A stretch of DNA of 64,000 nucleotides, from positions 719,550-783,549 of the forward strand of contig MU006094.1 of the NCBI GenBank assembly GCA_010093705.1, read 5' to 3'. The notes beneath the pieces are model-generated. The model saw only the letters and a program-made list of their open reading frames with translations. It had not been told where the DNA came from and did not search any database. The first letter of the stretch is position 1, and each line of letters begins with the position of its first letter. The DNA is from Patellaria atrata CBS 101060. Its lineage: Eukaryota. Positions 1,538-46,352 of the stretch are shown here, piece after piece. A program made the position numbers and the translations under genes.

Positions 1538-2655
1538 TCAGTACAAGATCTTTGTCATTTCACGGTGGAAGTCCAATGCCGTGATGTCTGGGAAATGCGC
1601 CGGGTTCTCCTCGGTGACGAAATGCTTGATAGGACCAACGGATGCTCCTCTGTGAGCCTTGAAGAAGAAGACTGAGGAGTAGCGCTCAGGAATGCTACCA
1701 TCTTGCTGGTTCTGCAATCCCGGAGGGGTGTTGACCTGGTGCAGACCGCCGGTAACGACCTTGTTGGTCCATCGAGTGAAAGTATCGCTGGTGTTGACTA
1801 CCATCACGTTCTCTCCCGGGTTCACTGGGACAGGGGCAAAGCTGAATGGTTTGCGCCTGTCCTCGCATTCGAGACCACCTAGGCCGTCTTGGAAGAGAAG
1901 GGTGATGATACCGAAGTCAGTGTGGGGCCAAGCGCGCTTAATGAGACCCTTCTTGAGAGTCTCCACAGCGACTTCTGGGTAGTAGAGCATGCGCAGCTCG
2001 CTAGCCGCAGGGATACACTTCTCGACGAGAGTTCCGGTTTCCATGTGGAAACCGACTTCGCATGCGCGCATGATATCAAGGCATACATTCTGCGCAGCCT
2101 CGAAGTACTCATACACGAACTCGCGGAATCCTGGGAGATCCTCATCAGGGAAAAGGTTGGGGAATTGAGTCTCTTCCTTAGGACCGCAATCGAAGTGTTC
2201 CTAGACATCTTTAGCATTCGTTCTGCAATACCATCTGAGAGAGACAGTGATGTACCTTCTCATCGAGAAGTGTGGTCTTGGACTTATCTACACCAACATA
2301 GTTCTCCTTGCGGAGCTTAGAAGTTGTTTCGAGCCCCTTCTTGCTCCAGCCACGCTGCGGGTCAGGCCCTGGTGCGTGGTAGATCTTCAACTTCTGCTCC
2401 TCAGTCATTGCGAAGAACTTCTTCTCCTGTTGTTTATCAGTTAGAAGAGTGGAAGCTAATGATTGCAAGATGAGTGGACTTTACCCATTTCCAGATGTTC
2501 TGGACCATCTCATCAGTGATGCCGTGGTTCCTTAGCCTGACGAAGCCATGCTTGATGAATGATTCAACAAGAGCTTCACCAAGTTGTAGGCGCTCCTCAG
2601 GAGTACCGTTGTGGAAGAGATCGAAGTCAAGAAGGGGCAAGTCGAAGTCGGCCAT
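1538..2655 (-). CDS. 2-oxoglutarate/Fe(II)-dependent dioxygenase (IPNS/DIOX_N fold), resembling fungal amino-acid hydroxylases of the EcdK/GloF/PhqC/UcsF type
   Basis: Three exons (2655-2485, 2426-2256, 2200-1538) joined by GT-AG introns give about 334 aa. It has the DIOX_N start LPLLDF...HGFVRLRNHG, the HxD motif (WPHTDFG), a distal His (GLHQV) and the RxS 2OG-binding motif (RYSSVFF). Confidence 0.9.
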
Positions 2656-3211
2656 TTTTGCTATTGATGTTTAACCACGGAAAGATGGATGAAGAGAGCT
2701 GTTCAGATTCTTTGCTGAAGAAGAGGAGTGTTTGAATGCTTGAGTTGCTTGAGTTGCTTGAGCAATGTAGAATAAGTGATGCCTTCTCAATGCCTCTTTA
2801 TACCCACAAGAATACTCACAAGATTTACAGATCTACATCTTTCCGCCGTTTTTCACACATATCTGCGTATACCCAGAGTCAAGATCATGAATCATCTCAT
2901 TGTAGTACGTGATACAATTTCCCGATTTAGGCCTATGCAGCTTATAGCTGAGAAGGTAAGGCGGAAACCATATTCTTCGGTGGGTCTTACCGTTTGTGGG
3001 ACTGATGATGAGGCATTTCTCCTCATGCTGATGTTTCAGAACCGGATCACCGCGTGCACGGTCTATGGAGAGAATGAATCGAACGATCAGTGACGAAAAG
3101 CGCTGGAGCTAGTCATGGTCTTTTGCTGGTCATCAATATCTCAGTTGTGGGATCTTCGGAGCAGAGTTACGTGATGTATCATTACTTGAATCTAGAATAC
3201 GAAATCTAACA

Positions 3212-4132
3212 CTAATTTGCTTTAGGCTCCCTACCAAGCTCAAAGACCCGGTGTATCGCCTGCTGGATGGCATCTGTATAGACACTTTCTACGGAACCTG
3301 CCCTCAGAACTCTAACACCGCGCTCGGTGCACCCGTTAGGTGTCATTACTCTTTCCTGTACTGTAGGAGGATCATCCCCTCTCAAGATCATCTCTGCAGT
3401 ACCTTTCATAGACTGTGCTGCCATACGTAGAGCAACTTGTCGATCCAAACCAGCCTTCATAGCACCCTGGACGATTCCTTCCAAGGCCTCTGCAAAGAAT
3501 GCAGGTGTCGATGCTGCGGTAACACTCGCCGCATTCATCTCATGTTCCCTGACCTTAGTTACTGTTCCAATGCTCTCGAATACCCACATCGCTAAAGCTT
3601 CCATGTCGGCGGGAAGGGGTGATCCCGCCGTACTAATGATGGTAGCCGATTCCCTTACACCGCTTGCGGTGTTTGGCATGGCGTGCACGATGTGGGGCCC
3701 CTCCCCCTGCACCATAGATTCAGCGTCACCGTTGATGAGACCCTGGATCTTGGAAACGGATAATCCGACGCAAATGCTAAGCAAAAGCTTACTTTGTAAA
3801 TTCGCGCGCAAACCAGGGTTTGACAGGATTTTTGCAGCCTGACTGGGCTGGCATGCTAAGAGAATGATGTCGGCGGCTTTTACAGCCTTGTCATTGCTGT
3901 TCTGCCAGACTTCGATGGAAGGAGTACCGTGATCGACGTATTCCTTGTACTTGTTTTCGAGTGGCGCGATGGACTCGGGACGGTTCACGCACGCAATGAA
4001 GCGGGACGGGAGAGCCGTTAGAGGAAGTTTGTTTTTGGTCCGTGTACCTTCTTTCAAGGTGGTCAGGATCCCATCGAGGATTGCGGTACCCATGTTACCG
4101 CACCCCAAGATTGTCATTGTTGTACCGCCCAT
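3212..4132 (-). CDS. Pyrroline-5-carboxylate reductase-like imine reductase (ProC family), cluster-associated paralog
   Basis: Intronless ORF with ATG at 4132. Rossmann GCGNMG, ADIILLACQP, HAMPNTA, AAQSMKGTA and VMTPNGCT correspond to ProC motifs. Confidence 0.88.
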   Translation of the reverse strand: MGGTTMTILGCGNMGTAILDGILTTLKEGTRTKNKLPLTALPSRFIACVNRPESIAPLENKYKEYVDHGTPSIEVWQNSNDKAVKAADIILLACQPSQAAKILSNPGLRANLQSKLLLSICVGLSVSKIQGLINGDAESMVQGEGPHIVHAMPNTASGVRESATIISTAGSPLPADMEALAMWVFESIGTVTKVREHEMNAASVTAASTPAFFAEALEGIVQGAMKAGLDRQVALRMAAQSMKGTAEMILRGDDPPTVQERVMTPNGCTERGVRVLRAGSVESVYTDAIQQAIHRVFELGREPKAN

Positions 4133-5890
4133 CTTGTTGGGTGCAGATCTCACGGTGGTAGTACTTCAAATCTGTGTGTAACGAACTTTGATGTAATCAC
4201 ACCGAATGTGACGTGCGGATCTTCGAACCGAGGCTGAGATTGGACTGGCAAATCCGAAAATGATGACACTAGATTGTGGGGGGTGTAGATATGGAGGGGG
4301 TTTACGAAATTACCAACATTAGGCGCGTACTTATAAGCATTTTGGCCGTTCTACGTGGCTGACATGATAGAGCAAGGAAGAAATGCTTGTATCGACGTAC
4401 TCGGTAGGGAAAAGCAACCTCAATCTGACAACCATTTCACGCCGATACTGCGCCGATCCAGAGGTTCCGGGCACTTGGCAGTTGGAGCGACTGTGGTGGT
4501 ATAACAAAATGACTACACATATAAGCGGTGTTTGAGTGAGGTTACTTCAGATAAACGGTAAACCGCCGCTTTCGGACCTAGCGATTATCGGATGTTATTG
4601 TTAGTAGAGCTAAAGTAGCTTAGAGAGAAGCTATGACGCCGGGGATGCAGTAGTTAAAATATCGCAAACACATTAAAGGGAGTTATTTAATATTATTTCC
4701 TCTTGACCTTTCTTCAATTGGCTAACGTGCCGTAAGCATTACTTTGCAGCTATTAGTTAAGGTACCTAAGATACGATTTAGCTTCGGTGAATATAACAGT
4801 GGCGTATTCGGAGCGCGAGTCAGTCAAGGTGGGACGAACTTCGATTTCTTTTTTCACCTGTCTTCGCCTGCGTTAGCTCGATTTGGAGATTTAGTTACCA
4901 AAACTTTATATTGATGTCCTATCTCTGTGCTTTTAGTGCTGTTGATCTCGGACATCATCGTCCAAGTCTTTTTTAGAATAATCACAGGCAAAATACCGTA
5001 TCAATCAAGTGCGATATTGGTCCATAATAATAGACAAGTCCGATGTAGCTTCAGCGTTTCGTCATAGTCAGCTTGTGTAGCATCACTTTGGAACAAGCGC
5101 AATCGCGTAATATTCTCACCTGAGAAATTATTATTGAGGGGAAAAGGGATAATAATGCTACTGCAGCCGAACGAACAAATGGCCCCGTCTCCACATCGAG
5201 CGGTGTACTGTACAAGTAAGCGCTTCGTTACGTATATAATACCATGCAGGGGACCTGAGATCTATGGTGGATACGACATCGGCGCGAACCCCTTGCTTTC
5301 CTGAGACCTGGCCTGAGACTGTCTTTGATGAACCCTTTCAGCTCCTAGGTCGGATTTGATGTGCACGGCGGTACCACATCGTCAGCGCGATGCGAGAAAC
5401 CCGATACCGAAATGCAAGTGCCGGGATCCCGGCGCGCTCGGGGCTTGTCGATCAACGCATATAGCTTCCCAGTCGTTCCAACAATAGTCGATTTTTGGGC
5501 GTGTCTAACCCGTCGTGTGCCTGAGCCTGGTATTAAGCACCAGAATAATTACCGAGGCTCGATTATTATTTTTTGGATAGCTACGTGTAAAGATTTTTTG
5601 TTTACTTGCTAACACGTAGTTGTTATTCTTGTGTAGAACTATATGAAAATATTACCAAAATGCTACTAAACATAAGGATATAAAACTGAAAATAACAAAT
5701 TGCGAATTCACTGAACCCCAGGTCTCCATGAAACAATCAAATTCGACTACCACAATGTTCAACCCAAAGAAATTCGTACCCATCAACAGAAGTTTCCTGT
5801 CGCGCCATAATACTAACCTAGTCAAGCAATGACTTTTGATACCTTACCTTACCTTGCTCGTGAGAGCGTTTGAGCGAAGAAGCACAGCAT

Positions 5891-7752
5891 CTAGCTCTTG
5901 TTCTTTCTTTTCCTCAATTGGTGAAGCTTCTTCCAGTCCATCCCAAGGATGCCCCAGACTGAGTTCGCTCCCAGAATCGTACAGGTATACCAAACCCAGA
6001 CCAGCGCATAGTTTATCGCGTTGATAACCGTAGCTTGGTCTTCCTTGGACACAAGATTTCTAAGATTGGTAGCACCGGTGCTAATGATATCGTGTGGATC
6101 GAGGCCAGTGACTGTATTCCCCAATCTCTGAGAAAGGCGCTGTATGAACACGTTCTGGGCCACAGACACCATGATCGCGGGGCCTGATGCCTGGAAGAAG
6201 GTGACGACAGCAATACCAAGGGGAATATCCTCTACCCGAAGCGTATGTTGGATAATAACAGCAGCTTGTTGCATACCTAAACCAATACCAATACCGACCA
6301 TGAGCTGGTATCCAATCCATTCAGCAGGTCCAGAATTGGGCGTGAGGGTGGATAGTAGACCACATGCGATGGAAGTTATGATCGTAGAGAGGATGACAGC
6401 GGGAGCAAAGAGTCCAGTTTTCCTCACAAAGAGTCCTGCTATGACGGAAAATGTGAGTGCTCCCACAAGCTGGGGAATAGTACGTAGACCAGACTCCAAT
6501 GCCGATGTACCCTGGGCTGCCTGGAAGAAAATCGGAAGCTAGATGCGAAGGTTAGAAAATGGTTTACTTGCACACAACAAGAACTCAGGGGACGCGTTTG
6601 ACTTACGAAGTAGGCAATAGCATAGTAGGGTGCATCAATGCACAAGACAAAGAAAGAGGCAGAAATAACAGTCCTGTTCTTTGCGATGCGCGGGGGCATA
6701 GTGGCAGCATCTCCCAGATATATCTCATTTGCGGCGAAAGAGAGAATAAAGACACCAAACAAGGTAAACAATGCAATGACTCGTGGGCTATCCCAGGGAT
6801 CGGATGTACCTCCAAATTGAAGGCCGAAAATTAAGCATACGCATGCGGCAACGAACAGAACTAGTCCGAGTGGGTCCAGTCTTTGGATCTGCTTTAACAC
6901 AGTCGCTTTCTCGCGATACACCGTCGGAGGGTGGTAAAGGAAGAAAAAAACAGCGGCTACAATGGCTCCAAATGGTAAATTGATGAAGAAGCACCTGAAT
7001 TTGATGTTAGCCCGAAGTCGGCTTTAGAATGAGGCTCAAAAATACCATCTCCATGTCAGCTTATCGGTAAACACACCGCCTAAGAGCGGGCCTCCAATGC
7101 CTGCCACAATACGGATCGAGCTCACTCCCGCTGTGTAGAGTGGTCTGTCCGTCAGAGGAACAGCTTTGGAGATAATAATCAGGACACCGCTGATTATACC
7201 ACAACCTCCACCACCCGCAACAGCACGCCCTACGATCAAAACGCTCGAACTTGGAGCGACACCGCAGAGAAGTGATCCTAATTCGAAAAGGGCGATTGAG
7301 ATAATGAATACCCATTTCGTGGAATAGTCTTTGTATAGCTTTCCGAAATGAAGTTGGAAGCAACACATGGAAAGCAGATATGCGGATCCATACCAGCCGA
7401 CATCGTTAATTGAGTGGAATTCATCGGTAATCCTTGGAATCGCGGTAACTATGATAGTCTCGTCGATGGAGATGAGGAAAATTGCAAGCGCCATAGCAAC
7501 GCACATGACAATAAGCTGCCTACGGTCAAGGTGGATAGTGACTTCTGCAGGGGAAGGCGGGCCATGGTTGCTCTTCGACTCCGACTTCTCCAGGTCGGTA
7601 TGCTCTGAGCTGTCCACAGGAGCAATTTCTGTAGTTTCACTTCGACTACTCTCAATCTTCTCCTGGATAGATTTCTCCTCCATGGAACTCTCTGATTTCT
7701 CTGACTTCTCGCTCGGATCTGGCGAATGGTCTGGCGCTCGATTTTGGGTCAT
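5891..7752 (-). CDS. MFS drug:H+ antiporter (DHA2, 14-TM; secondary-metabolite efflux type)
   Basis: Exons 7752-7046, 6994-6607 and 6538-5891 splice in frame. Motifs DETIIVTAIPRITDEF, VGWYGSAYLL, GRAVAGGG, LTWRWCFFINLP and LPIFFQ are present. Confidence 0.92.
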
Positions 7753-9059
7753 GATGACAACGAAACTGTGGGGAGAGTCGTCTAAGGCCCGTGCCGTAAG
7801 GAATTGAAGCTTGAGGGGAAGTAAGGGGGAAGGATGGTAAAGCGACGCTTAGGAGAGTGAGAATGGAACAAAAGAGCTCAGACTTAGCTTCCGTCGGATT
7901 ACACGCGAAAGCTTACGCTGAGGGACAAGAAGGAGTTTGGAGAGTTAAGCTTCAAGATGAGAAAGAAATTCGGGTGTGCTTCCCAGTTGTGCCATTAAAA
8001 CCATAATATTCATTATTGCTACCCTGTATTGTGACACTAAATCAACTGGGGAACAAAACGTTACGATAAGCTTCTGCCGCGTTGTCGCCCTCGTCGCGGT
8101 GTACGATGGGGTGGTAGCTTATCACGATTCACATAGTTCACCATGGGCCAATACCGCTTCAGATTACCGTCTGAGGTAATCCGTGCATATGACACAATCA
8201 TCGTGAGTTTGCGCTAATAAATTCACTGTGATGGCCAGCTCGTCAAGGATGAGCCGGTAAACGTGGTGGGGTTAGCAGGATATGCGCTCCTGAAGGGGCA
8301 GGCGAAGTTGGGTTAGGGTTGCACATCATCGCGAAAACCTCAGCCGTATCTTTCCCAAAAGGCCCCCCACGGGGCAAGCAGATGCGGGCGGCACGGTTGG
8401 CTTAAACGCCTCGGTGACGGCGTTGCTTAAAACGTCCAAAGGCGGTCTTGGTGATCTTGGGTATCCTTCCTTAGGCCCCTCTGGCTTCCCAGTATGAGGT
8501 CATAGCCCCTGCCAATACCAGCCAACCCTTTAAACCTGTTGGGCTGACTCAGATTCCAGTTTACCCTCCGATCTTATCATCCTAACCTCAACATCCAATG
8601 ATGATCCCATCGATGGTCGATGTCATGATTGTCATCCTAAGCTCTGGCACCTCGTACACATATCGAATAACTCTAAAACCGCCCTAAGTCCCTTGCTGCA
8701 TTGCGTCTTACATTGCATTTGACGCGACTGGCCCTGCAGCTGCAACACATCCCAATATCAGATACTTCAACGCTTAACGTCATGATCAACTGTGTTTCAC
8801 AGCCGAGTTCGGTGGTGAGCAGCCGAGCAAGCCACGCGCGGGAACCGTTGGTGGGACCCGTTCATGGCAGCCTCGTAAGTTCCAGAGTCACCGCTTCTAA
8901 AAGTTGCTGACAAGTCTATCCGTGAGAGTTTACATTATGAGCGGTACCTCACGCTGAATGTGGATTAAAAGAGCTTTCCTCACGTTCTTCTCTACCTCTC
9001 TATCATCCCCTTGGCAGAAGTGAATGTCTTCGTGAGCGAAGACAAAGTGGCTGGACCAG

Positions 9060-12000
9060 ATGACTCCAGCGGATGTGGTGGGCATAACGACCCCTGATTC
9101 AGGGGAGTTATGGAAGTTCTGTGAGGAGAACAATGTGCCTCCAGCGTCGCTCTTCAAGTTGGCCTGGGCCATCGTTCTGCACACTTACTTCGATACCCGC
9201 TCCTTTCTCGTCAAAGAAGAGCTCAGAGACTCTACGAACAAGAGTGGTCTAAAAGACATCGGTGTGATTAACTTCGCCCCTGACTTGTCCAAGACCACTC
9301 CCACTCTTTCTACCCTCCAGAATGTTGGAACGAAGAATGATAGCCCGGAGGTAGGACTGCATCAGGCCAGCCCCAACGGCTACGACAATTCTCTGGTGAA
9401 GTTGCGGAGTGAGCTTCAAATCATACATCGAGAATCTGATGAAATCGGACGGAATAGCTATTCTGCGAATGATTTCAAACAAGTATGATGACCCCTATTT
9501 GTATCTTCTATTCTTTATACTGATTTCTCTATAGTCTCAAATCACAGTAATCATAGAACTAAGTAGATCGAAATCTACCGGTTTCATATATTACGACCCG
9601 AAATTAAACGAAATTAACGACCTCAACAACTCTGCAAGAGTATTTGCTGAAGTTGTAAAAAGCATCTTAACGAACGCGGCCCCTCACATTGACGACATCA
9701 ACCTCGTCAGTGAATATGACAAGGCGAAAGTTTTGGAGTCGAATTCCAAGACTCTCTCTTCCGTCATCGACTGCATGCATTTATTGGTCTGCAAAACGGT
9801 GGCCGAGAGACCGGATGATACAGCACTGATCTCTTGGGACGGTCAACTCACCTATCGAGAGCTGGATCGATACTCTTCAATTTTAGCGCGTCATCTAATC
9901 GAAGAATTCGGGATTGGTCCCGAGAAAGTTGTACCACTATGTTTCGAAAAGTCCATTTGGGCTGTAATAGCTATGTTAGGAGTGTTGAAGGCGGGTGCTG
10001 CATACTGTTGTATAGATCCAGCCCTACCAGCAGCAAGACGGAATTACATGATTGAATTGGTTGACGGGAGCTTGGTATTGACGAGCCCGATCTATTCCGA
10101 ACTCATGGTGGATTTCCCAACATTCGCAGTCGACGCAGATTTGTTTTCAGGCCTCAATTACCCGGAAACTCTGCCTTCGTCTGGCGTTAAGCCGACTAAC
10201 ACTTGCGTTATAGCTTTCAGTTCGGGGACAACGGGAAAACCAAAGGCAATTACGCATACCCACATCTCAGTGTGCAGTGGAATTGATGCGAATGCCCCGG
10301 TTCAAGGTCTCAACCAAGTTCGGAAACGGGTTTTCCAATGGGCCGCTTATACCTTCGATGTCAGTATTACTGAAACGTTTTCCCCTCTCATTCATGGCGG
10401 GACCGTTTGTATTCCTTCCGAGGAAGAAAGGCTGAACAACGTTGACGAATGCATGATTCGTATGGATGTGGATTGGGCATATTTCACCCCTACATTCGCA
10501 AGATTCTTCCGACAATACACGATTCCTACGCTCAAGACCCTTATCCTTGGTGGCGAGGCGGTGACCATTGATGATGTTAGAGGCTGGGTTAACAAAGTAC
10601 GTGTTTTGAACGCTTATGGGCCAGCTGAAGCCATCACTTGGTTTTTGGAACCTCAGGCGGGTATCTCTAATACTATCTCCATTGGGCGTCCCATCAATAT
10701 GTACGGCTGGATTGTGAACCCGGATAACTCGGCTCAATTGATGCCAATCGGCGCTATAGGAGAATTACTTCTTGAAGGGCCCAGTCTCTTTGAATACTAC
10801 ATCAAGAATCCGGAAAAGACTGAGCAGCAATTGATTGAACCACCTCCTTGGCGCATTGCCGGCAACCTAACTTATGTTGGGAAGATGTATAAGACTGGCG
10901 ATCTGGTCCGCTATCTTCCTGATGGCACAATGACATACGTCGGGAGAAAGGACACTATGGTCAAGCTTTATGGCCAGCGCATGGAGCTGGAAGAAGTCGA
11001 AGTCACAATGCGCCGACATATTCCAGAGGGCATCAATTGTTCGGCGGATGTGATAACACCAGCGGGCGATAAAGAGGAGCCGGCGCTGGTCGCCTTTCTG
11101 TCTACACCTCCCCATACACCAGATTTCAATTTCCACGATCTCAGGATTCATCTGCAAACCAAGATTGCTGAATCGCTACCGGGATTCATGGTTCCAAGAA
11201 TATACATACCTATGGAGACACTCCCTTACAATTCTTCTCGAAAACTGGATCGTACGAAGTTAAGACAGTATGCCTCTAGTTTGACCCGCGGCGAGCTGGT
11301 CGACCTCATCAAGCAACCCGAGACAGAGAAAAAGGAAGAGAATGAATCAGAGACTCTGACCCCAGTAGAGAGTGAACTGCAGCAATTGTGGGCTACCGCG
11401 CTTTCATTGGAACCAAGTCAAGTTCGTCTAGACAATAATTTCTTTTCTCTGGGAGGAAACTCTGTCCACGCGCTGAAGGTAACGTCACGGGCCAGAGACA
11501 AGGGAATCATAATCACTCATGCGGATTTGTTCCGAGCTCCCTCGCTACGAGCTCTTGCTAAGGCTGCGAAGACCGGTTCGAGCAGTGCGGAAACATCAAC
11601 ACCACCGTTCAGTCTCATTGATGATAGCGTACGGTCTGCTGTAATTGCGGACGCTGTAGCTCAATGCGAGGTGCCTGAAGAAGCGATAGAAGACATCTAT
11701 CCCCAAGCTCCACAGCAGCAAGGTCTATGGGCACTCTCTTTAGCACATGATGGGGCTTATCTAGGACAATTCATTCTGGAAGTGAGCCCCGAAGCTGACC
11801 TCGAGAGGCTCTTGAGCGCTTGGGAGGCCGTATTAAAGCATTTGCCCACACTTCGTACTCGATTTATTGAGACTGAGTCCGGATCCTATCAGGTTGTGGT
11901 GAAAGAGGAGATACAGTGGCAAAGTTCAGATCGAACCGAAGAATATTTAGCAGCGGATGTTCAGAATAACGAGGTCGAGTTTGGAAAACCGCTTGTACGG

Positions 12001-15000
12001 CATGCAGTCATATCAGAAGATGGCAAACACAAGATTGTGTGGAGCATACACCATGCGTTGTACGATGGAGACTCGGTCCCGATGTTCCTCAACATGGTTT
12101 CTAAAGCATATGATGGTGTCCTACCCGATCCTCAGGCTGGTCCATTCAACCACTTCATCAAATATACGATGAACTTAGATCTCGAGTCCGCTTCGAAATA
12201 TTGGCAATCTCAGTTTGATCCCATAAACCCTGTACAGTATCCAGCGCTGCCTTCCCCAACATACCGGCCGAACCCTGCATCAATCCACAGGCGACCTATT
12301 CGGTTCGCTCGACGACTTGCATCAACTATCACAACTGCAACACTGCTCCGAGCAGCTTGGTCCCTTACAGTGGCTAACGCCGCAAAATCCGCGGAGGTAT
12401 CGGTGGGAGTAACTCTTGCCGGACGCACAGCACCTGTGCCTAATATCGAAACTGTTGTCGGTCCAACATTCGTTACCCTCCCTACACGTGTTGCGTATGA
12501 TCCTAGTGATAGTGTCGTTGGATACTTGCAGCGAACTCAATCCTACATTGTTGATATGATGCAGTTTGAGCACACCGGTATCCAGAAGATTCAGGAATTC
12601 AGCTCCCAGTGTCAAAGTGCATGTCAGTTCCAGAATATTCTTCTTGTTCAAACTGAAGGTGATCTGAGCTATCGAAAACTCCTCGGTTATGACGACACGA
12701 CGGGCGGATTTGGCAGGTTCAACAGCCACTCTCTGATGTTGCTTCTCTTCCCCAGCAACGAGGGCGTTGATGCTGTCTTTAGCTTCGACAGTTCTGTGAT
12801 TAGCGGGGAGCGGGTCGCTCAGATTGACCAACAACTGGAGCATTTTATTCACATACTATGCTTGGAAGAGGACAATCGCCCAATCTCTTCAGTACTCAGC
12901 AGTGAAGTTTCTCAGGAGTTTAACGCCACGGGAGTTGTTCAAAGCTATCAAGAATCTAAGGAGGCCTCAGAAGAAGTCTCGAAACCAAAGGAAATGCCAA
13001 ACGGACTGCCAAATGGAACAGCTTCGGCTCAGAAATCGCCACCCAGCACAGAACAAGAGATCCTTTTAGCTAAGTTATGGGCTGATGTGCTCAGAATCTC
13101 CCAAGCAGATGCTATCAGTGTTACGGACGAATTCTTCAGCACCTATGGAGGTAATTCTCTCTTCAGTTTGAACCTTGTACAACGTTGCCAGAAGAATGGG
13201 TACCGCCTTACGGTCAAACAAATCTTCCAACATCCTAGGCTCGCTGACATGGCAAATACTATGAAAAAGATAGCCGCGGGTGAGAAAAAGGCTGCGATCA
13301 TCCAACCCTTCGCCTTACTTGAACCCAATGGATTGTCGAAGAAGGCTATTCTGCCAGAGGCCGCACAATCATGCGGTGTCTCGGAAGAAACGATTGTTGA
13401 CATTTATCCCTGCACCCCCTTACAAGAGGGATTGTTAGCGGTCTCACAAACACAACCGGGGTCTTACATCTCTAAGACCGTGCATGAACTTGCTGATGGT
13501 ATTGACATTGCTAGATTTCGTCTGGCGTGGGCCAAAGTGTACCGGGATATGGAGATTCTAAGAACCAAAATCTTCCAGCTTACTAGTCCACAGAAGTCCT
13601 TGCAAGTTGTTCTATCCTCTGATATGGAATGGCAGGAATCCACAAGTCTACCTCAATACCTCGAAGAGACCAAGGACATTGAGATGGGTTTCGGGACAGC
13701 CCTCAACCAATTCGCAATTATATACGACGAGAACTCGGCTAAGACATACTTTTCACTCATCATACACCATGCGCAATATGATGGCTGGTCCATGCCCTTG
13801 ATGTTCAACAGGGTCTATCAATCATACATTGAAGGCTCCACGGTACCCCGTGGCATCAGTTTTAATAACTTTGTCCAAGTTGTAACTTCACAAAATCCCT
13901 CGAAGCAAGAGGAGTTCTGGCGAACACAATTTACCGACGCTTCACCTATTCACTTCCCAGAACCTTCTCCTTCTGGTTCAAAGCCGGGCAGCCAGATCAA
14001 TATCGAGCATTCAATCAAAGTCTCAAAGCCTAAGAATTCTAGCATCATAACCTCTACCATTCTACGTGCTGCTTGGGCGATGCTCCTAGGGTCATATACA
14101 AACTCTGAGGACGTTACCTTCGGAGCAACATTGTCAGGAAGGAATCTACCTTTGCCAGGAATTGAAAACTTAGCAGCTCCAACGCTGACCACGGTTCCCG
14201 TTCGGGTTCAATTTGAAAGGACAGAGCAGGTCTCAGACTTTCTGCGTCGGGTGCAAGACCAGGTTACAGACATGATCGAGTTCGAACATTCCGGTTTGCA
14301 ATCAATCCGCAAACATTTCCCTGAAGTCTGCAATTTCGAAAACTTGCTAGTTATTCAACCGAGGGGCAAAGAGATGGATCAGTCAAGGCTATGGACTGCA
14401 ACTCAACTGGGAGATACATCACGCTTCCTTAGTTATCCTCTCGTCCTTCAATGCACGCTCGAGGACGATATCGATACAATTCAAGTTACAGCCACTTATG
14501 ATCCGAAACGCATTGCGCACACTCAAATGGATAGAATCCTCAAGCAGTATGGGACTGCAGTATCTCAATTAATGTCTGCGGAAGATAAAACTACCCTTGC
14601 TCAGCTCAATCTTATCAGCGCGGATGATGAGCAAACCCTCAAGGATTGGCTCCAGGAGCGTCCCGCACCTGAAATTGTGGACAGATGCCTACATGCATTG
14701 ATCACTGACCAGGTCTACGATCATCCAAAATCACTCGCTATAACATCCTCCGAAGGACAGGAACTGACGTATGGGGAGTTATACGAGTTCTCTTGCAGAC
14801 TACGTCACCTATTAGCTGAGAACGGTGCTCATCCTGGGATGAAGATACCAATAGTCTTTGATAAGAGCATATGGGCAATCGTTGCCATGACAGCTGTTCT
14901 TTATAGTGGAGCTGCTTTCGTACCCATTGATCCCGATCATCCTGCCAGTCGTCGCAACGCACTCTTCGACCAACTCAACCCTTCTATTATCCTATCTTCG

Positions 15001-17975
15001 CCGAAATATGCAGATCTGTTTAAGACTTACACAACCTTTGGTGTGGACCGTGGTTTCCTCGAGAAGCTGCCGTCTGTTAGGAACGGCGAGAGAAAGTACA
15101 GCCCTGTGCTGGTCTCTCCAACAGATCCCGCTTATGTTCTCTTCACTTCCGGCAGTACTGGAATTCCCAAGGGTGTGGTTATCTCCCATGGTACCGTTTC
15201 TTCATCAGTCAAGGCTCATGGAGGCGCTATGGGTATGAGCGAGAACACCCGAGCGCTACAATTCTGCTCTTATACCTTCGATGTCTGCATAGCTGAAATT
15301 TTCGCAACCTTGGTATTTGGCGGAACCATCTGCATACCCACACCAGAAGGTCGTATGAACAATCTCGCAGGCGAGATCCAGATTCTGAAGCCGAATTGGG
15401 CTTTCTTGACACCAAGCGTTGCAAGATTGGTTGATCCTTCCGAGGTGCCGAGTCTTGAAATCCTTGTCTTAGGCGGAGAGGAGGTCAAACCGAGCGATAG
15501 CTCTAGATGGAATGGGAGCAAAGTTCGTCTTATGAACGGTTATGGGCCTACAGAAGCTTGCGTGTTCTGCGTTACCAGCGATATCGATACCACTGCGCAC
15601 TCTAGGACAATCGGTAGAGCCATCGGCTGCTCAGCTTACATTACCGATCCAGAAGATCATACTAAGCTAGCCCCCATTGGTACTATTGGAGAATTGCTCG
15701 TTGCCGGACCTATTCTTGCCACTGGTTACCTTAATAGCCCCGAGACCACCTCAAAGGTCTTCATTCAGGCACCAGCTTGGGCCGAGAGGGTGAAGAGAGA
15801 CGCAGTCGCACCTAGGAGATTTTACAAGACAGGTGACTTGGTACGATATGATCACTGCGGAGAAATCGAATACATGAGAAGAAAAGACACACAGGTGAAA
15901 GTGGGTGGCCAAAGAGTGGAGGTTGATGATATTAACCATTGGATTCTCACCGACAGCGAAGTCAACCATTCCCTTGTACTCTTACCGAAGAGTGGCCTCT
16001 TCAGTGCGAGGAAGCAACTTGTCGCCGTCTTCTCGAAGAAACAGGATACTGAGTTCGGTGTACCCCTGAAATTGGTACCAAATGCTATTTCACAGCCAAA
16101 GATCTCAAGCCTCAAGTCAACACTAGCTGATAATCTCCCGACATACGCCGTTCCTGCTATCTGGATGGCTGTTGAGAAGATTCCTTTGTCGGCAGCCGGT
16201 AAGATCGATAGAAGACGAGTTCGTGAATGGGTTGAGAATATCTCCAAAGAGGAATACCTGGAAGTTACCGCGGCAAACACGCAAAATAGTAGCTCGGTAC
16301 AACCAAAGGGACCGCTAGAAGAGAAGTTGCAAACTATCTGGGCCTCTGTTCTTGAAATCCCGGTGGAAAGTGTATCTGCTGATAGATCGTTTTTCAGTTA
16401 TGGTGGTGACTCAGTAGGTCCCTTGAGCTCAACGTTTCTCACAATATCGATTCTAATATCCTCTAGATTTCTGCTATCCGAGTCGTAAAACAATGCCGCA
16501 AACAATTGATTGACGCATCAATTCAAGATTTGATGATTGCTCGAGGAATCTCGCATCTCGCTAAGATCGTAAATTCCAAGGAATCCACCACTATTCCCGT
16601 CAATCCTCCTGCCAAAGCGATCATCTCTCCCATGAGCACTGAGGCAGTTGCACAAGCAGCCAAGATAAGTAATCAGAACCCCGAAAACATTGAGAACATC
16701 ATGAGGTCCACACCTTTACAAGAGGCCATGCTGTCAAAGAGGTCTGAAGGATTCTATAACTTAGAGATGCTACTTGAGATCGAGTCCAGAGAACCACTGG
16801 ATATCAACCGCTTACAGGGAGCTTGGAACCAAGTCCTTAAACGTCATGCCGCGCTTAGAACCATCTTCGTCGAGCAGAACGGAAGAGCGGATCAGATTAT
16901 TCTCAAAGACATCGAATCGACGCTTTCTGTAGAAGAAGTGGAAGAAATTCGATCCCGCTCAAGGGAGAGCTCTATTAACCGTAAACCCGCCTATCCCCAG
17001 AATGGGCCATACCACAAGCTATCCGTCGTCAAGTCCGAAGGCAAACCGTTCGTGAAGATTGAAATTTTTCACGGTCTAACAGACGCCGTCAGTCTAGGGA
17101 CCGTATTCCGCGATCTAGCGCTCGCATACGACAGCAAACTTCCCTCGACCCCGGCTCCCCAGTTCTCAGAATACATCAACTACATCACCAACCAATCCGA
17201 GCAAGGCACAAAGTACTGGAACGAATACAGCGCAGGCGCTTTACCATCTCTCATCGCGCTGACGCCAGAAACCGACGCTACCGAGATGACACTCCTTCAC
17301 ACTGACGTGGAAATCGCACGACAGAGTGAAATAGCTTCATTTTGCCGACACCACGGCATCTCCATTGCGAACTTCTTCCACGCCACCTGGGCGCTCGTTC
17401 TCAAATCTTACATTCCATCCAAGGAGGTGACATTCGGCTACCTCGTCTCCGGCCGCGACATCGACATCGACGGCGTCGAGGAAACAGTCGGCGGTCTCCT
17501 CTCAGCCCTCGTCTCGCGACAAGCGGTGGATGATCAGACGTCCCTGACGCAGCTCCTAACGCGCATCCGAGACGACAGCGTGCAGAGCTCCGGGCACAAG
17601 TTCTGCGATATCGCGAAGATAAACCCGTTGTTTAATACTATGGTTAATTTCAGGTATTTTGCGTTCCCCTTTCATTTTCTAAAGCTGAAATCAAATCACT
17701 AACATGAAAACAGAAAATATCCCACCCCAGTTAAAGATGCGGATATTTCGATCAGTTTTGAATATAGAGAAGGCTTTGATCCGTGGGGGTACGATATCAC
17801 GTTGTTAATACAGGAAGGGGGGGATAAGATGGATGTTTCGTTGGCGCATTGGAATACTGCTTTTTCGGCTGCAAAAGGGAAGGAGATTGGGGATTGTTTT
17901 GGAAAGGTCGTTGAGGGTGTGCTTGGGGATGCGTCGCAGAGCGTTCGTAGTCTTTTGGGTTCGGTTAGGGCGTAA
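9060..17975 (+). CDS. Nonribosomal peptide synthetase, (partial C)-A-T-C-T-C-A-T-C(terminal)
   Basis: Exons 9060-9482, 9535-16413, 16467-17653 and 17714-17975 splice in frame. A1: FSSGTTGKPK, YGPAE, YKTGDL. T1: FFSLGGNS. C: HHALYDG. T2: FFSTYGGNS. C: HHAQYDG. A2: FTSGSTGIPK, YGPTE. T3: FFSYGGDS|I. Terminal C: FHGLTD...DPWGYD. The exact start codon is less certain. Confidence 0.93.
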
Positions 17976-18953: not shown

Positions 18954-19973
18954 CTACTCCCTGTTAGTAACCCCACGCTTCAGCATTGCCATATAATCTT
19001 CACAGCCTCCGTTATCGCGCGCCAATACCGAGTATGGGTAAGGGATATGACAGCTGCGACACACACATGGAGAGATAGAATAGCTATTGAGATGGTCTAT
19101 GACACTCAAGTAACGACTGGTGAATTGGGGATGCATACAGCGATATCTCAACTGATCTTGGCACGTTATGAGTGCTTTCTTGTGTTGAACGAAGTCATAT
19201 ATGGGCTTGTCGAGGTATTCACCGAGCATGAGGTTGCGCTGAATAGTCTTAATTTCTGCTGCGATCTCCCTGGCGCTCTGATATGTCCCCTTCCAATACC
19301 CAAGGATAACAGATTTGAGTAAGAGGTGATCCGTCTCCGGAATCGCTCCCCTTGCATAGCGGCCTTTTTGATCATCTTCATCGATCCCCGCGTAAGCCTT
19401 ATGGGTAGTAGATATCTGATAGATAATCGGGCCAAGTGCGAATAGCTCTGACTGCACTGTTGGTACGCCAGAGTTGTCTAAATCGGGGTGCTCAGCTTGT
19501 CCGCTGACCGTCACGGAGGGTTTATTTTCATCTATCCAGCTACTGGAAAAGTCGCAGTACTTGACATTGTCATCCCATTCAAGCAGCAAGTTATTGAGTG
19601 AGATATCGGCTTGGAAAACTTCCTTCTCGTACGTCCCTTCTGCTGCCTGAGCGGACCATCTCATAGTTTCCTCTGGTGTGGGAGTAGCACCTTTATGCTG
19701 AAGTATGAAAATTGGGACGCAGAGAGGGTACATGAGGCGCTCGAAAATAATTGCACGCTCGCGCGAGTATAAGTACTTTGCGATTCTGGGATGCTCGCCC
19801 AAGCGTTTGCATATGCTTCGTTCGACCATCAGGTCCTTGATGCGCTCCTCTCCGCCATAGAACCTTTTCACCACGGAGTAATCGTTAAGGGGAAAGGCCA
19901 TGCCGGATACTCCTGCGTTGAGCAAGAGGGTGTTCCAGGGCACCTTCGGTAGCTCAGGCGTGGATTTGCTCAT
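18954..19973 (-). pseudogene. Degenerate fungal protein-kinase-like ORF (probable pseudogene or pseudokinase)
   Basis: VVK, LGEHPRI, RWSAQAAEG, QADISLNNLLL (HRD position), KYCDFS (DFG position) and SELFALG are recognisable. The usual LxYxH before the catalytic loop appears shortened, the C-terminal tail looks non-homologous, and the flanks are rich in TA and stop codons. Confidence 0.55.
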
Positions 19974-46156: not shown

Positions 46157-46286
46157 ACGCGTTGCAAATTTTCCTTGACATCTCGGTGACGGAGCGCGTT
46201 CTCGGGTTGACTCATTCGAGTCGCGTCTGTAGACAAACAACAGTCCGTGACGTACCTTAGCTTGTTTTTCTACAACACGTACGCGT
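46157..46286. promoter_or_regulatory. Cluster of MCB-like boxes upstream of the Gin4/Hsl1-like kinase
   Basis: ACGCGT at 46157 and 46281, plus CGCGT cores near 46195 and 46222. Function is inferred only. Confidence 0.4.
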
Positions 46287-46352
46287 TTCCTCTCAATCTC
46301 GTCAAAACACTTCTGGACGTTCTTGGATATCACCATTTGCACCCGCGCGGAG

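What the first reader, a model, noticed from the sequence alone, without database searches (positions are those of the whole stretch)
1538..17975. Compact four-gene NRPS cluster predicted to make a small cyclic peptide containing a non-proteinogenic cyclic imino acid
Seen: a dioxygenase, a P5C reductase paralog, an MFS exporter and an NRPS lie side by side, all with intact reading frames and splice sites. The MFS and NRPS share a divergent intergenic region (7753-9059). Established: 2OG-dioxygenase plus P5CR pairs supply modified prolines in the paraherquamide (PhqC/PhqD) and UCS1025A (UcsF/UcsG) pathways. Inference: this is a minimal pathway whose NRPS layout I cannot match to a characterised fungal NRPS. 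No prenyltransferase, P450, PKS or transcription factor is visible, although the cluster could extend left of the window.
Basis: partly seen in the sequence, partly recalled or inferred. Interest (0 to 1): 0.8.

Follow-up and report, generated by a model that had tools for sequence, protein, structure and literature searches.

The report
Fungal NRPS cluster with methylproline-supply genes
Four neighbouring genes of the fungus Patellaria atrata (a peptide synthetase, an exporter and two enzymes that probably turn leucine or isoleucine into a methyl-proline building block) form a conserved, uncharacterised gene cluster of a familiar kind whose product is still unknown.

Summary
Four intact genes lie side by side: a 2OG dioxygenase (1538-2655, -), a P5C reductase paralog (3212-4132, -), an MFS exporter (5891-7752, -) and a 2916-aa NRPS (9060-17975, +). 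The window is from Patellaria atrata CBS 101060.

The dioxygenase's best solved-structure match is UcsF (E 5e-59). It is 44% identical to McfK, the leucine oxygenase of the 4-methylproline pathway, and has EcdK-type pocket residues.

The reductase sits in a separate clade from housekeeping fungal P5CRs and has a changed substrate loop.

The NRPS reads C*-A1-T1-C1-T2-C2-A2-T3-CT. It has two adenylation domains for three carrier domains.

Synteny is conserved. Aspergillus hancockii has NRPS, one unidentified gene, P5CR and dioxygenase on four consecutive accessions. Talaromyces stipitatus and Lepraria neglecta have NRPS, one gene, then P5CR. A metagenome contig carries MFS, P5CR, dioxygenase and NRPS.

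Best reading: a methylproline cassette, more likely making 4-methylproline from leucine, feeds an NRPS that builds an X-X-Y or X-Y-Y tripeptide, probably released by cyclisation. Product, expression and cluster borders are not shown. I found no characterised counterpart. This is a new member of a known kind, of moderate interest.

The parts
1538..2655 (-). Fe(II)/2-oxoglutarate dioxygenase of 334 aa, with exons 2655-2485, 2426-2256 and 2200-1538. It belongs to the fungal aliphatic amino-acid delta-oxidising family (EcdK/McfK/GLOXY4/UcsF type). The public record names it 'gibberellin 20-oxidase'.
   Evidence: The spliced model equals P0244 exactly. Pfam finds DIOX_N + 2OG-FeII_Oxy. The best PDB hit is UcsF 9ktp, E 5e-59. 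It is 44% identical to McfK and to OXY4 and 68% to its A. hancockii ortholog. The HxD..H and RxS motifs and the L/F/F pocket are conserved.
3212..4132 (-). Pyrroline-5-carboxylate reductase paralog of 306 aa in a single exon. It is the presumed reductase of the methyl-pyrroline-carboxylate made by the dioxygenase.
   Evidence: The ORF and its start are shown, and it equals P0124. Pfam finds F420_oxidored + P5CR_dimer. It lies in a clade separate from housekeeping fungal P5CRs (support 100, stem 0.95). Its substrate loop reads MTPNGCTERG, against STPGGCTIGG in 60 of 81 other fungal P5CRs.
5891..7752 (-). MFS transporter of the DHA/TRI12-like type, about 580 aa. My exon model is 7752-7046, 6994-6607 and 6538-5891. 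It is the presumed exporter and is divergently transcribed from the NRPS.
   Evidence: Pfam finds MFS_1, TRI12 and Sugar_tr on the three exon ORFs. The splice model comes and was not checked against an annotated protein. An MFS that is 43-60% identical lies beside the P5CR and dioxygenase in metagenome loci L001, L002 and L003.
7753..9059 (.). A 1307-bp divergent intergenic region between the MFS and NRPS start codons, presumably a shared promoter region.
   Evidence: The start codons are at 7752 (-) and 9060 (+). No promoter analysis was done.
9060..17975 (+). NRPS gene with 4 exons, encoding 2916 aa. Layout: C*(remnant)-A1-T1-C1-T2-C2-A2-T3-CT.
   Evidence: Exons 9060-9482, 9535-16413, 16467-17653 and 17714-17975 reproduce P0004 exactly. 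Full-length orthologs are 48-56% identical in T. stipitatus, A. hancockii and L. neglecta.
9060..9795 (+). N-terminal remnant of a condensation domain. It has no HHxxxDG motif and is probably not catalytic. All four full-length orthologs start at the same point.
   Evidence: Pfam finds nothing on exon 1. There is a weak local match (E 1e-5) to the second half of the terminal C domain. The ortholog N-termini are shown.
9796..11253 (+). Adenylation domain A1. Its ten-residue specificity code is DVTYIGATWK.
   Evidence: Pfam AMP-binding covers 9796-10800, and the A10 lysine motif is at 11230-11253. The code is identical in 6 of 6 orthologous A1 domains, and L001 has DVSYVGAAWK.
11374..11565 (+). 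Carrier domain T1, with the serine motif LGGNS.
11689..12855 (+). Condensation domain C1, with motif HHALYDG.
13066..13257 (+). Carrier domain T2, with motif YGGNS. It has no adenylation domain of its own.
13405..14640 (+). Condensation domain C2, with motif HHAQYDG.
14707..16212 (+). Adenylation domain A2. Its code is DVAFVGGVFK.
   Evidence: Pfam AMP-binding covers 14707-15732, and the A10 motif is at 16192-16212. The code is identical in T. stipitatus and L. neglecta. A. hancockii has I at position 8, and its gene model breaks the domain.
16321..16575 (+). Carrier domain T3, with motif YGGDS. It is split by the intron at 16414-16466, and its end is approximate.
16737..17972 (+). Terminal condensation-like domain (CT type). 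Its motif is FHGLTDAVS; the orthologs have SHAIIDAVS or SHAITDAVS. It is the presumed release and cyclisation domain and is split by the intron at 17654-17713.
   Evidence: Pfam Condensation covers 16737-17621. The motif is and the ortholog motifs from the sequences. That this motif marks fungal cyclising CT domains is recalled, not tested.

Best explanation
This is a small secondary-metabolite gene cluster in which two enzymes make a methylated proline that the NRPS then builds into a short peptide.

Inferred pathway:
1. The Fe(II)/2OG dioxygenase oxidises the terminal methyl group of an aliphatic amino acid twice, to the aldehyde. The substrate is more likely L-leucine than L-isoleucine.
2. 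The aldehyde cyclises spontaneously to a methyl-delta1-pyrroline-5-carboxylate.
3. The dedicated P5CR paralog reduces it with NAD(P)H to 4-methyl-L-proline (3-methyl-L-proline if the substrate is isoleucine).
4. The NRPS has two adenylation domains and three carrier domains. One adenylation domain, probably A1, loads two carriers (T1 and T2), as shown for the ferricrocin synthetase SidC.
5. C1 and C2 make two peptide bonds. The resulting X-X-Y (or X-Y-Y) tripeptidyl thioester on T3 is released by the terminal CT-type domain, most likely by intramolecular cyclisation.
6. The MFS protein exports the product.

Shown here: gene integrity, domain content, family placement of both tailoring enzymes, conservation of the gene neighbourhood, and conservation of both A-domain codes among orthologs.

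Inferred only: the substrate of the dioxygenase, which A domain takes the methylproline, double loading, cyclisation and export.
For: Gene models are exact or open.

Dioxygenase:
- UcsF is the top hit among 177,635 distinct PDB sequences (E 5e-59, aligned 6-329 against 3-328; about 39% identity by my hand count of the alignment). The next hit is thymine dioxygenase at 2e-40.
- It is 44% identical over its full length to McfK and to OXY4 of Phialomyces arenicola.
- McfK, EcdK and GLOXY4 are described as the leucine oxygenases of 4-methylproline formation (passages of PMC10832530 and of PMC7778625).
- UcsF and DetxE oxidise L-isoleucine to 4-methyl-P5C, which P5CRs reduce to 3-methylproline (passages of PMC8233208).
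- The residues at McfK positions 92, 209 and 291 are L, F and F in the window protein and in all 21 family members I aligned. PMC13366494 names L92, F209 and F291 as the EcdK pocket (passages). UcsF has L, L and L at the aligned places.

P5CR:
- A clade of 43 of 118 sequences holds all 37 close relatives of the window protein. It has support 100 and a long stem.
- The substrate loop differs from the housekeeping type.

Co-location:
- P. atrata: dioxygenase KAF2839731 and NRPS KAF2839734.
- A. hancockii: NRPS KAF7592009, P5CR KAF7592011 and dioxygenase KAF7592012.
- T. stipitatus: NRPS EED18482 and P5CR EED18484.
- L. neglecta: P5CR KAK3171194 and NRPS KAK3171196.
- By equal contig length, 10 contigs (the window's own included) hold both a P5CR paralog and a dioxygenase of at least 63% identity. 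Two more follow from cluster members.
- Metagenome locus L001 has MFS, P5CR (45% identity), dioxygenase (57%) and the NRPS start (42%) in a row. L003 has MFS, P5CR and dioxygenase.

NRPS:
- All three carrier serines and the C1 and C2 HHxxxDG motifs are intact.
- The A1 code is identical in 6 of 6 orthologs, and the A2 code is the same or differs at one position in the 4 that cover it.
- Inter-modular loading by one A domain is shown for SidC (abstract and section headings of PMC10192304).
Against: - No product, expression or enzyme activity is known. Only DNA runs of the source genome were found.
- No dioxygenase of T. stipitatus or L. neglecta appeared among the 120 listed of 371 hits. The full four-gene set is therefore documented only in P. 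atrata and A. hancockii (one gene unidentified there) and, in a more distant form, in L001.
- Several fungi hold the dioxygenase ortholog while no NRPS ortholog of theirs was listed: Penicillium subrubescens, P. waksmanii, P. canariense, A. leporis and Microdochium trichocladiopsis. One contig pairs the dioxygenase with an unrelated three-module NRPS, P0075, whose A-domain codes resemble neither A1 nor A2. The cassette is therefore not tied to this NRPS alone.
- The A-domain codes match no specificity code I can recall, so which domain takes methylproline is open.
- The L/F/F pocket is invariant across the whole family I sampled, so it may separate UcsF from the rest rather than leucine from isoleucine. 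DetxE, an isoleucine enzyme, could not be compared.
- A head-to-tail cyclic tripeptide is strained, so release may take another form.
- In P. atrata the terminal domain motif begins with F where the orthologs have S.
Confidence: 0.6

Rival explanations
1. The cluster logic is the same, but the dioxygenase works like UcsF and DetxE. It oxidises L-isoleucine at C5, and the product carries (3S)-3-methyl-L-proline instead of 4-methylproline.
For: UcsF is the best solved-structure match. UcsF, like this enzyme, has a P5CR-type reductase (UcsG) in its cluster, whereas the echinocandin clusters have none (passages of PMC8233208 and of PMC7778625). DetxE is only 42% identical to UcsF yet uses isoleucine, so identity levels around 40% do not fix the substrate.
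Against: Identity to the leucine enzymes McfK and OXY4 (44%) is higher than to UcsF (about 39%, hand count). The window enzyme has F where EcdK has its named pocket residues F209 and F291, while UcsF has L at both.
Confidence: 0.22
2. The two enzymes do not make a methylproline. The dioxygenase either acts on another free amino acid (for example lysine or an arginine-type substrate giving P5C or P6C) or tailors the finished peptide. The P5CR paralog reduces a different cyclic imine, such as a piperideine carboxylate to pipecolate, or simply boosts the proline supply.
For: The paralog's substrate loop differs from housekeeping P5CRs at several positions, which would fit a different ring. The family also contains enzymes of unrelated function: thymine dioxygenase, an ethylene-forming enzyme and TropC are among the PDB hits. 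The related locus L001 holds two further dioxygenases and an isopropylmalate-synthase-like gene, so the chemistry in this cluster family can be more varied.
Against: The nearest characterised relatives, by a margin of nearly 20 orders of magnitude in E-value, are amino-acid delta-oxidising enzymes. The tight pairing of dioxygenase and P5CR on small contigs is what a two-step building-block route predicts.
Confidence: 0.12
3. The genes are neighbours without a shared pathway, or the cluster is a silent relic. The NRPS, whose T-C repeat recalls siderophore synthetases, would then make an unrelated compound.
For: A-T-C-T-C units appear in print only for ferrichrome- or NPS6-type siderophore synthetases (passages of PMC6563098, PMC3091305 and PMC5148876). 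No expression data exist.
Against: Gene order is conserved across three classes of Ascomycota and in L001. All reading frames and catalytic motifs are intact. No ornithine monooxygenase or acyltransferase, the genes that hydroxamate siderophore clusters need, appeared among the ORFs scanned.
Confidence: 0.06

Closest known systems
UcsF/UcsG of the UCS1025A cluster (Acremonium sp.)
   Same: A 2OG dioxygenase of the same family sits with a P5CR-type reductase inside a secondary-metabolite cluster and supplies a methylproline. UcsF is the window enzyme's best solved-structure match (E 5e-59, about 39% identity).
   Different: UcsF uses L-isoleucine and feeds a PKS-NRPS that makes a pyrrolizidinone (passages of PMC8233208). 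Here the partner is a pure NRPS with three carrier domains, and the pocket residues are of the EcdK type. UcsG could not be compared because no sequence was available.
EcdK / GLOXY4 (GloC) / McfK, leucine oxygenases of the echinocandin-type clusters
   Same: They belong to the same family. McfK and OXY4 are 44% identical to the window enzyme, with the same HxD..H, RxS and L/F/F pocket residues. They oxidise leucine iteratively to the aldehyde, which cyclises to a pyrroline carboxylate (passages of PMC7778625 and of PMC10832530).
   Different: In those clusters the reductase is not encoded in the cluster (PMC7778625), and the NRPS is a six-module lipopeptide synthetase. Here a dedicated P5CR paralog is adjacent and the NRPS is small.
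PhqC/PhqD of the paraherquamide cluster
   Same: A 2OG-Fe(II) oxygenase and a P5CR gene lie side by side next to an NRPS. This is as listed from MIBiG in passages of the preprint 10.64898/2026.01.29.701693.
   Different: That cluster also has prenyltransferases, P450s, an FAD monooxygenase and an A-T-C-A-T-R type NRPS (the layout is recalled). None of these is in the window. No sequence comparison was possible.
DetxE plus housekeeping P5CR (destruxin/isaridin, Beauveria felina)
   Same: The chemistry is the same two-step route: a dioxygenase, then a P5CR, to a methylproline used by an NRPS (PMC8233208).
   Different: There the reductase is the primary-metabolism P5CR and is encoded elsewhere. 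Here it is a diverged paralog in the cluster.
SidC-type nonlinear NRPSs (ferricrocin/ferrichrome synthetases)
   Same: They contain T-C units without their own A domain, and one A domain loads several carriers (abstract and headings of PMC10192304). The substring A-T-C-T-C-A-T-C occurs inside their layouts.
   Different: They are much larger (for example A-T-C-A-T-C-T-C-A-T-C-T-C-T-C), use N5-acyl-N5-hydroxyornithine and lie with hydroxamate genes. The window NRPS's nearest non-orthologous hits are ordinary multimodular NRPSs at 33-39% identity.
NosE/NosF and GriE/GriF/GriH (bacterial 4-methylproline routes)
   Same: They convert leucine to 4-methylproline for an NRPS, with a P5CR-like last step (passages of PMC4946873 and of PMC8233208).
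   Different: The oxidising enzymes are different (a zinc dehydrogenase, or GriE plus a separate dehydrogenase), the reductase can be F420-dependent, and the hosts are bacteria.

Membership tests
Fungal Leu/Ile delta-oxidising Fe(II)/2OG dioxygenases (EcdK/GLOXY4/McfK, UcsF, DetxE) | DIOX_N plus 2OG-FeII_Oxy domain pair | tested here: met
   Pfam finds PF14226 (8.9e-20) and PF03171 (7e-11) on P0244. McfK has the same pair.
Fungal Leu/Ile delta-oxidising Fe(II)/2OG dioxygenases (EcdK/GLOXY4/McfK, UcsF, DetxE) | HxD...H iron triad and RxS 2OG-binding motif | tested here: met
   H207/D209, the His of GLHQV and R-Y-S align with those of UcsF. They are invariant in the 21 aligned members.
Fungal Leu/Ile delta-oxidising Fe(II)/2OG dioxygenases (EcdK/GLOXY4/McfK, UcsF, DetxE) | The nearest characterised relatives are members of the family | tested here: met
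   UcsF is the top PDB hit at 5e-59, against 2e-40 for the next protein. McfK and OXY4 are each 44% identical over 334 columns.
Fungal Leu/Ile delta-oxidising Fe(II)/2OG dioxygenases (EcdK/GLOXY4/McfK, UcsF, DetxE) | Hydrophobic pocket residues named for EcdK (L92, F209, F291) | tested here: met
   L, F and F occupy the McfK-equivalent positions. That McfK and EcdK numbering coincide is inferred from the matching letters; EcdK itself was not available. The pocket residues come from passages of PMC13366494.
Fungal Leu/Ile delta-oxidising Fe(II)/2OG dioxygenases (EcdK/GLOXY4/McfK, UcsF, DetxE) | Iterative oxidation of free L-Leu or L-Ile to the cyclising aldehyde | not testable with these tools
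   This needs an enzyme assay.
Pyrroline-5-carboxylate reductases | N-terminal NAD(P)-binding Rossmann domain plus P5CR dimerisation domain | tested here: met
   PF03807 (6e-12) and PF14748 (2.5e-27). Solved P5CRs match at about 1e-22.
Pyrroline-5-carboxylate reductases | Housekeeping-type substrate loop (fungal consensus STPGGCTIGG) | tested here: not met
   The window has MTPNGCTERG. The 37 close relatives mostly have MTP[N/K]GCT[E/A]RG, with a few variants (T at the first position, G or H at the fourth, other last residues). Of the 81 other fungal P5CRs, 60 have STPGGCTIGG. It forms a separate clade. It is therefore a diverged paralog, not the primary-metabolism enzyme.
Pyrroline-5-carboxylate reductases | Orthology with the cluster reductases UcsG or PhqD | not tested
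   No UcsG or PhqD sequence could be obtained from a tool, and neither name appears among the 120 listed hits.
Fungal NRPS with a terminal cyclising CT domain | Complete A, T and C core motifs | tested here: met
   Two A domains have D235- and K517-equivalent residues, three T domains have the serine, and C1 and C2 have HHxxxDG.
Fungal NRPS with a terminal cyclising CT domain | The terminal C-like domain has the altered active-site motif typical of CT domains | tested here: inconclusive
   The motif is FHGLTDAVS in the window and SHAIIDAVS or SHAITDAVS in the orthologs. The CT consensus is recalled, not taken from a tool, and no CT-specific model was available.
Ferrichrome/NPS6-type siderophore synthetases | T-C units without their own A domain | tested here: met
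   T2-C2 follows C1 with no A domain between them.
Ferrichrome/NPS6-type siderophore synthetases | Neighbouring ornithine N5-monooxygenase or acyltransferase genes, and membership of the siderophore-synthetase lineage | tested here: not met
   No such domain appears among the ORFs scanned in the 64-kb window. The nearest non-orthologous hits carry no siderophore-synthetase names. No formal NRPS phylogeny was made.
UCS1025A or paraherquamide clusters as such | PKS-NRPS (ucs), or prenyltransferases, P450s and an FAD monooxygenase (phq) | tested here: not met
   None of these domains appears among the ORFs scanned in the window.

The most novel reading that the evidence does not exclude
The NRPS uses A1 twice to place two methylprolines and then closes a nine-membered cyclo-(MePro-MePro-X) ring. 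Such a ring is chemically feasible only because the residues are imino acids. It would be a scaffold outside the fungal cyclic tripeptide types covered in the review passages I read, and none of my methylproline search terms occurs in that review. In addition, the dioxygenase plus diverged-P5CR pair would be a portable two-gene 'methylproline cassette' that has been attached to different NRPSs in at least four classes of Ascomycota. The paralog's altered loop would be an adaptation to the methylated pyrroline.
Probability: 0.15. Interest if true: 0.6.

Novelty: new member of a known kind. Interest (0 to 1): 0.4.

Why it matters
Methylprolines stiffen peptides and protect them from breakdown. 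They occur in echinocandins, leucinostatins, destruxins and griselimycins.

This cluster is a compact, conserved four-gene unit that appears to carry both steps of methylproline supply together with a very small NRPS. That makes it a convenient system for three experiments:
- finding a new small peptide by heterologous expression;
- testing whether a diverged P5CR is specialised for methylated pyrrolines, since in the echinocandin and destruxin pathways this step falls to a reductase encoded outside the cluster;
- studying double loading of carrier domains in an NRPS far smaller than the ferrichrome synthetases.

It also corrects a public annotation: the 'gibberellin 20-oxidase' is an amino-acid oxidising enzyme.

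None of this overturns current understanding. It extends a known theme.

Tried and rejected
- RNA evidence: the look-up of sequencing runs listed no RNA holder. The two runs found hold the whole 20 kb as unbroken contigs without joints, so they are DNA and probably the source of the assembly. Nothing on expression or splicing follows from them.
- Whole genome: none is held, so a housekeeping P5CR in P. atrata and other clusters could not be looked for.
- Earlier findings of this scan: three look-ups returned nothing.
- Identity of the gene between NRPS and P5CR in A. hancockii, T. stipitatus and L. neglecta: a representative search with MFS exon 1 and a cluster look-up of its ten best hits returned proteins of other fungi only. 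That this gene is the MFS ortholog stays an assumption.
- Dioxygenase of T. stipitatus and L. neglecta: not among the 120 listed of 371 hits. The A. hancockii one surfaced only as a member of the A. leporis 90% cluster.
- Literature: six accession numbers gave 0 papers. The layout strings gave only ferrichrome-type layouts. Two searches on methylproline, P5CR, NRPS and fungi listed 12 and 10 papers, and by their titles and abstract openings none describes this cluster. A search on tripeptides and heterologous expression found none either. Four searches aimed at a paper on the UcsF structure drowned in 'UCSF' hits or found nothing useful, and PMC13336071 proved irrelevant. The library lacks most subscription journals, so 'not in print' holds for these searches only.
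- ESM Atlas: only generic 'Fe2OG dioxygenase' clusters.
- Guilt by association for the A domains: NRPS P0075 shares a contig length with a dioxygenase ortholog, and P0058 shares one with a 55% homolog. Neither has an A-domain code resembling A1 or A2.
- Stachelhaus-type reading of the codes: I mapped the ten positions from the alignments to LgrA using recalled PheA numbering. As a check, the LgrA glycine domain read DIANLCIIYK against the recalled glycine code DILQLGLIWK. Neither window code matches a specificity code I can recall, so I make no substrate call.
- Exon 1 against C2 gave no significant match.

Full report
**What is there**

The window is fungal. The large NRPS exon is 100% identical to a 2916-aa protein of Patellaria atrata CBS 101060 (KAF2839734.1), a member of the Dothideomycetes.

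Stop-to-stop ORFs and Pfam scans show four genes between 1538 and 17975.

- NRPS: I rebuilt the gene model from the sequence. Exons 9060-9482, 9535-16413, 16467-17653 and 17714-17975, with GT..AG introns, translate exactly to the public protein.
- Dioxygenase: exons 2655-2485, 2426-2256 and 2200-1538 on the minus strand translate exactly to the 334-aa protein KAF2839731.1.
- P5C reductase paralog: one exon, 4132-3212 on the minus strand, 306 aa.
- MFS gene: my three-exon model (7752-7046, 6994-6607, 6538-5891; 580 aa) is open and has consensus splice sites, but I could not compare it with an annotated protein.

The MFS and NRPS start codons face away from each other across 7753-9059.

**The NRPS**

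Pfam scans of pieces of the protein give the order A1 (9796-10800, A10 lysine at 11230-11253), T1 (11374-11565), C1 (11689-12855), T2 (13066-13257), C2 (13405-14640), A2 (14707-15732, A10 at 16192-16212), T3 (from 16321, split by an intron) and a terminal condensation-like domain (16737-17621 and on into exon 4).

All three carrier domains keep the phosphopantetheine serine. C1 and C2 keep HHxxxDG. The terminal domain has FHGLTDAVS, where the orthologs have SHAIIDAVS or SHAITDAVS. From memory, this altered motif is typical of fungal terminal cyclising (CT) domains, but I could not test that.

The first roughly 240 residues before A1 have no Pfam hit. They match the second half of a condensation domain only weakly (E 1e-5; no match to C2). 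All four full-length orthologs begin at the same point, so this is a conserved remnant without the catalytic histidines.

The enzyme thus has two adenylation domains for three carrier domains. For SidC it has been shown that one A domain loads carriers of neighbouring T-C units (abstract and section headings of PMC10192304). The simplest reading is therefore a tripeptide X-X-Y, or X-Y-Y, on T3.

**Adenylation-domain codes**

I mapped the ten specificity positions from the alignments to LgrA using recalled PheA numbering. As a check, the LgrA glycine domain reads DIANLCIIYK, close to the recalled glycine code DILQLGLIWK.

- A1 reads DVTYIGATWK in all six orthologous A1 domains available, and DVSYVGAAWK in the more distant locus L001.
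- A2 reads DVAFVGGVFK in P. atrata, T. stipitatus and L. neglecta. In A. hancockii it has one conservative change, and that gene model is broken in A2.

Both keep the aspartate and lysine that bind the amino and carboxyl groups of an alpha-amino or imino acid. I can assign neither code to a substrate.

**The dioxygenase**

It has the DIOX_N and 2OG-FeII_Oxy domains. Against all solved structures the best match is UcsF (9ktp): E 5e-59, aligned end to end, about 39% identity by my count of the printed alignment. Thymine dioxygenase follows at 2e-40, and everything else is above 1e-20.

Among the sequence hits, one 90% cluster contains McfK of Coleophoma empetri, and another hit is 'OXY4' of Phialomyces arenicola. 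Both are 44% identical to the window protein over the full length.

According to the passages I read:
- EcdK, GLOXY4 and McfK are the leucine oxygenases that start 4-methylproline formation in the echinocandin-type pathways (PMC7778625; PMC10832530).
- UcsF and DetxE oxidise L-isoleucine to 4-methyl-P5C, which P5C reductases reduce to 3-methylproline (PMC8233208).

A 2026 paper names L92, F209 and F291 as the hydrophobic pocket of EcdK (PMC13366494, passages). McfK has exactly these letters at these numbers. The window enzyme and all 21 family members I aligned have L, F and F there, whereas UcsF has L, L and L at the aligned places.

This, together with the higher identity, makes leucine and 4-methylproline somewhat more likely than isoleucine and 3-methylproline. 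The pocket is invariant in my whole sample, however, and I could not include DetxE or EcdK itself, so the call is soft.

**The reductase**

It has both P5CR domains and matches solved P5CRs only at about 1e-22.

In a tree of 118 fungal hits, a clade of 43 holds the window protein and all 36 hits listed right after it (37 of 37 rows), plus six more divergent sequences. The clade has SH-like support 100 and a stem of 0.95 substitutions per site. This is a FastTree tree with several long branches flagged.

In the loop that binds the substrate carboxylate in solved P5CRs (the role of this loop is recalled), 60 of the 81 sequences outside my close-relative group read STPGGCTIGG. The window has MTPNGCTERG, and most of its close relatives have MTP[N/K]GCT[E/A]RG. 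It is a diverged paralog, which fits a changed substrate.

**Is it a cluster?**

Three lines of evidence bear on this.

(a) Accession numbers in annotated genomes:
- P. atrata: dioxygenase ...731, NRPS ...734.
- A. hancockii: NRPS KAF7592009, P5CR KAF7592011, dioxygenase KAF7592012 (68% identical to the window's). This is the same order as in P. atrata.
- T. stipitatus: NRPS EED18482, P5CR EED18484.
- L. neglecta: P5CR KAK3171194, NRPS KAK3171196.
- M. trichocladiopsis: P5CR KAH7027595, dioxygenase KAH7027598.
- Alectoria fallacina: both genes on a contig of 124,320 bases.

- 10 contigs, the window's own included, hold both a P5CR paralog and a dioxygenase of at least 63% identity. Some are only 3.5 to 9 kb long.
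- 5 of the 10 NRPS hits at ortholog level share a contig with a P5CR paralog.
- 4 of the 10 share one with a dioxygenase ortholog.
- No dioxygenase hit below 63% identity shares a contig with a P5CR paralog.

(c) Direct reading of metagenome DNA:
- Locus L001 carries MFS (43-60% identical by exon), P5CR (45%), dioxygenase (57%) and the start of an NRPS (42% over residues 20-730) in one row. It also has an isopropylmalate-synthase-like gene and two further dioxygenase genes.
- L002 is a shorter copy of the same arrangement.
- L003 has MFS, P5CR and dioxygenase.

The NRPS orthologs span Dothideomycetes, Eurotiomycetes and Lecanoromycetes. The cassette also occurs in Sordariomycetes.

**Results against a simple four-gene unit**

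- No dioxygenase of T. stipitatus or L. neglecta was among the 120 listed of 371 hits.
- Several Penicillium species, A. leporis and M. trichocladiopsis have the dioxygenase ortholog, but no NRPS ortholog of theirs was listed.
- One contig pairs a dioxygenase ortholog with an unrelated three-module NRPS whose codes differ.

The lists show only one representative per 90% cluster, and only proteins within set length limits, so these absences are weak. Even so, they suggest that the dioxygenase-P5CR pair is a sub-cluster that can serve different synthetases.

**Borders and the rest of the window**

To the left only 1.5 kb remain, with no recognisable domain. To the right lie a kinase-like ORF (18957-20078, below the Pfam threshold) and an acyl-CoA-ligase-like gene (20601-22572). 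After those come housekeeping genes: a WASP homolog, eIF1A and an ERCC4 nuclease. Whether the ligase-like gene belongs to the cluster is open.

**Known or new?**

The public names are generic ('putative nonribosomal peptide synthase', 'gibberellin 20-oxidase').

- Searches for six accession numbers found no paper.
- The layout string occurs only inside ferrichrome-type layouts.
- Three topic searches listed no paper that, by title and abstract opening, describes this cluster.
- In a 2017 review of fungal cyclic peptides, none of my methylproline search terms occurs, and the passages shown name the cyclic tripeptides aspochracin, JBIR-15 and the sclerotiotides (PMC6150023, passages).

The library lacks most subscription journals, and I could not run MIBiG or antiSMASH. 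A characterised counterpart therefore cannot be excluded.

**Verdict**

This is a real, intact and conserved NRPS cluster of a known kind: a building-block cassette plus synthetase plus exporter.

The unusual points are the very small nonlinear NRPS and the dedicated, diverged P5CR.

Product, expression, substrate assignments and release chemistry are inferred, not shown.

Noticed in passing
window 20601-22572 (-) and 18957-20078 (-): An acyl-CoA-ligase-like gene (AMP-binding plus AMP-binding_C on three ORFs) and a kinase-like ORF (Pkinase hit below the Pfam threshold) lie directly downstream of the NRPS. They could extend the cluster, for example by supplying an acyl group.
   Followed up: no
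L001:4681-6255 (-), L001:859-1830 (-), L001:2992-4103 (+): The related metagenome cluster carries an isopropylmalate-synthase-like gene (HMGL-like + IPMS_D2) and two extra dioxygenase genes beside the MFS, P5CR, dioxygenase and NRPS row. This hints at a further unusual, possibly chain-extended, amino acid in that relative.
   Followed up: partly
proteins P0278, P0283, P0277, P0276: Purpureocillium lilacinum, P. takamizusanense, Tolypocladium ophioglossoides and Drechmeria coniospora each hold a homolog 52-53% identical to the window dioxygenase, with the same L/F/F pocket. The leucinostatin paper states that the origin of 4-methylproline in P. lilacinum is unknown and lies outside the lcs cluster (PMC4946873, passages). 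These homologs are candidates for that step.
   Followed up: partly
protein P0006 (A. hancockii NRPS, 2813 aa): The public gene model lacks part of A2. My profile splits that domain at residues 2197/2200 and the tenth code position falls in a separate piece. The model probably has a mis-called intron.
   Followed up: no
window 1538-2655: The public name 'putative gibberellin 20-oxidase' is a misnomer carried through many fungal records of this family. The nearest characterised relatives are amino-acid oxidising enzymes.
   Followed up: yes
window 35816-37937 (+): A fungalysin (M36) metalloprotease gene with an FTP propeptide motif, spread over several exons.
   Followed up: no
window 39146-39745 (-), 42269-43099 (-), 52676-53149 (-): A GH5 cellulase fragment, a CAP-domain (cysteine-rich secretory) protein and a cyclophilin gene.
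   Followed up: no
window 46251-50404 (+): A large Ser/Thr protein kinase gene with a C-terminal fungal KA1 domain.
   Followed up: no
window 55181-55963 (+) and 62138-63544 (+): A second TRI12-like MFS transporter, only 22% identical to the cluster MFS over 112 residues, and a C2H2 zinc-finger protein. Both are far from the cluster.
   Followed up: no
protein P0256: A dioxygenase 66% identical to exon 3 of the window protein is filed under the tree Carpinus fangiana. An NRPS hit (P0049) is filed under Quercus suber. Both look like fungal contamination in plant assemblies.
   Followed up: no
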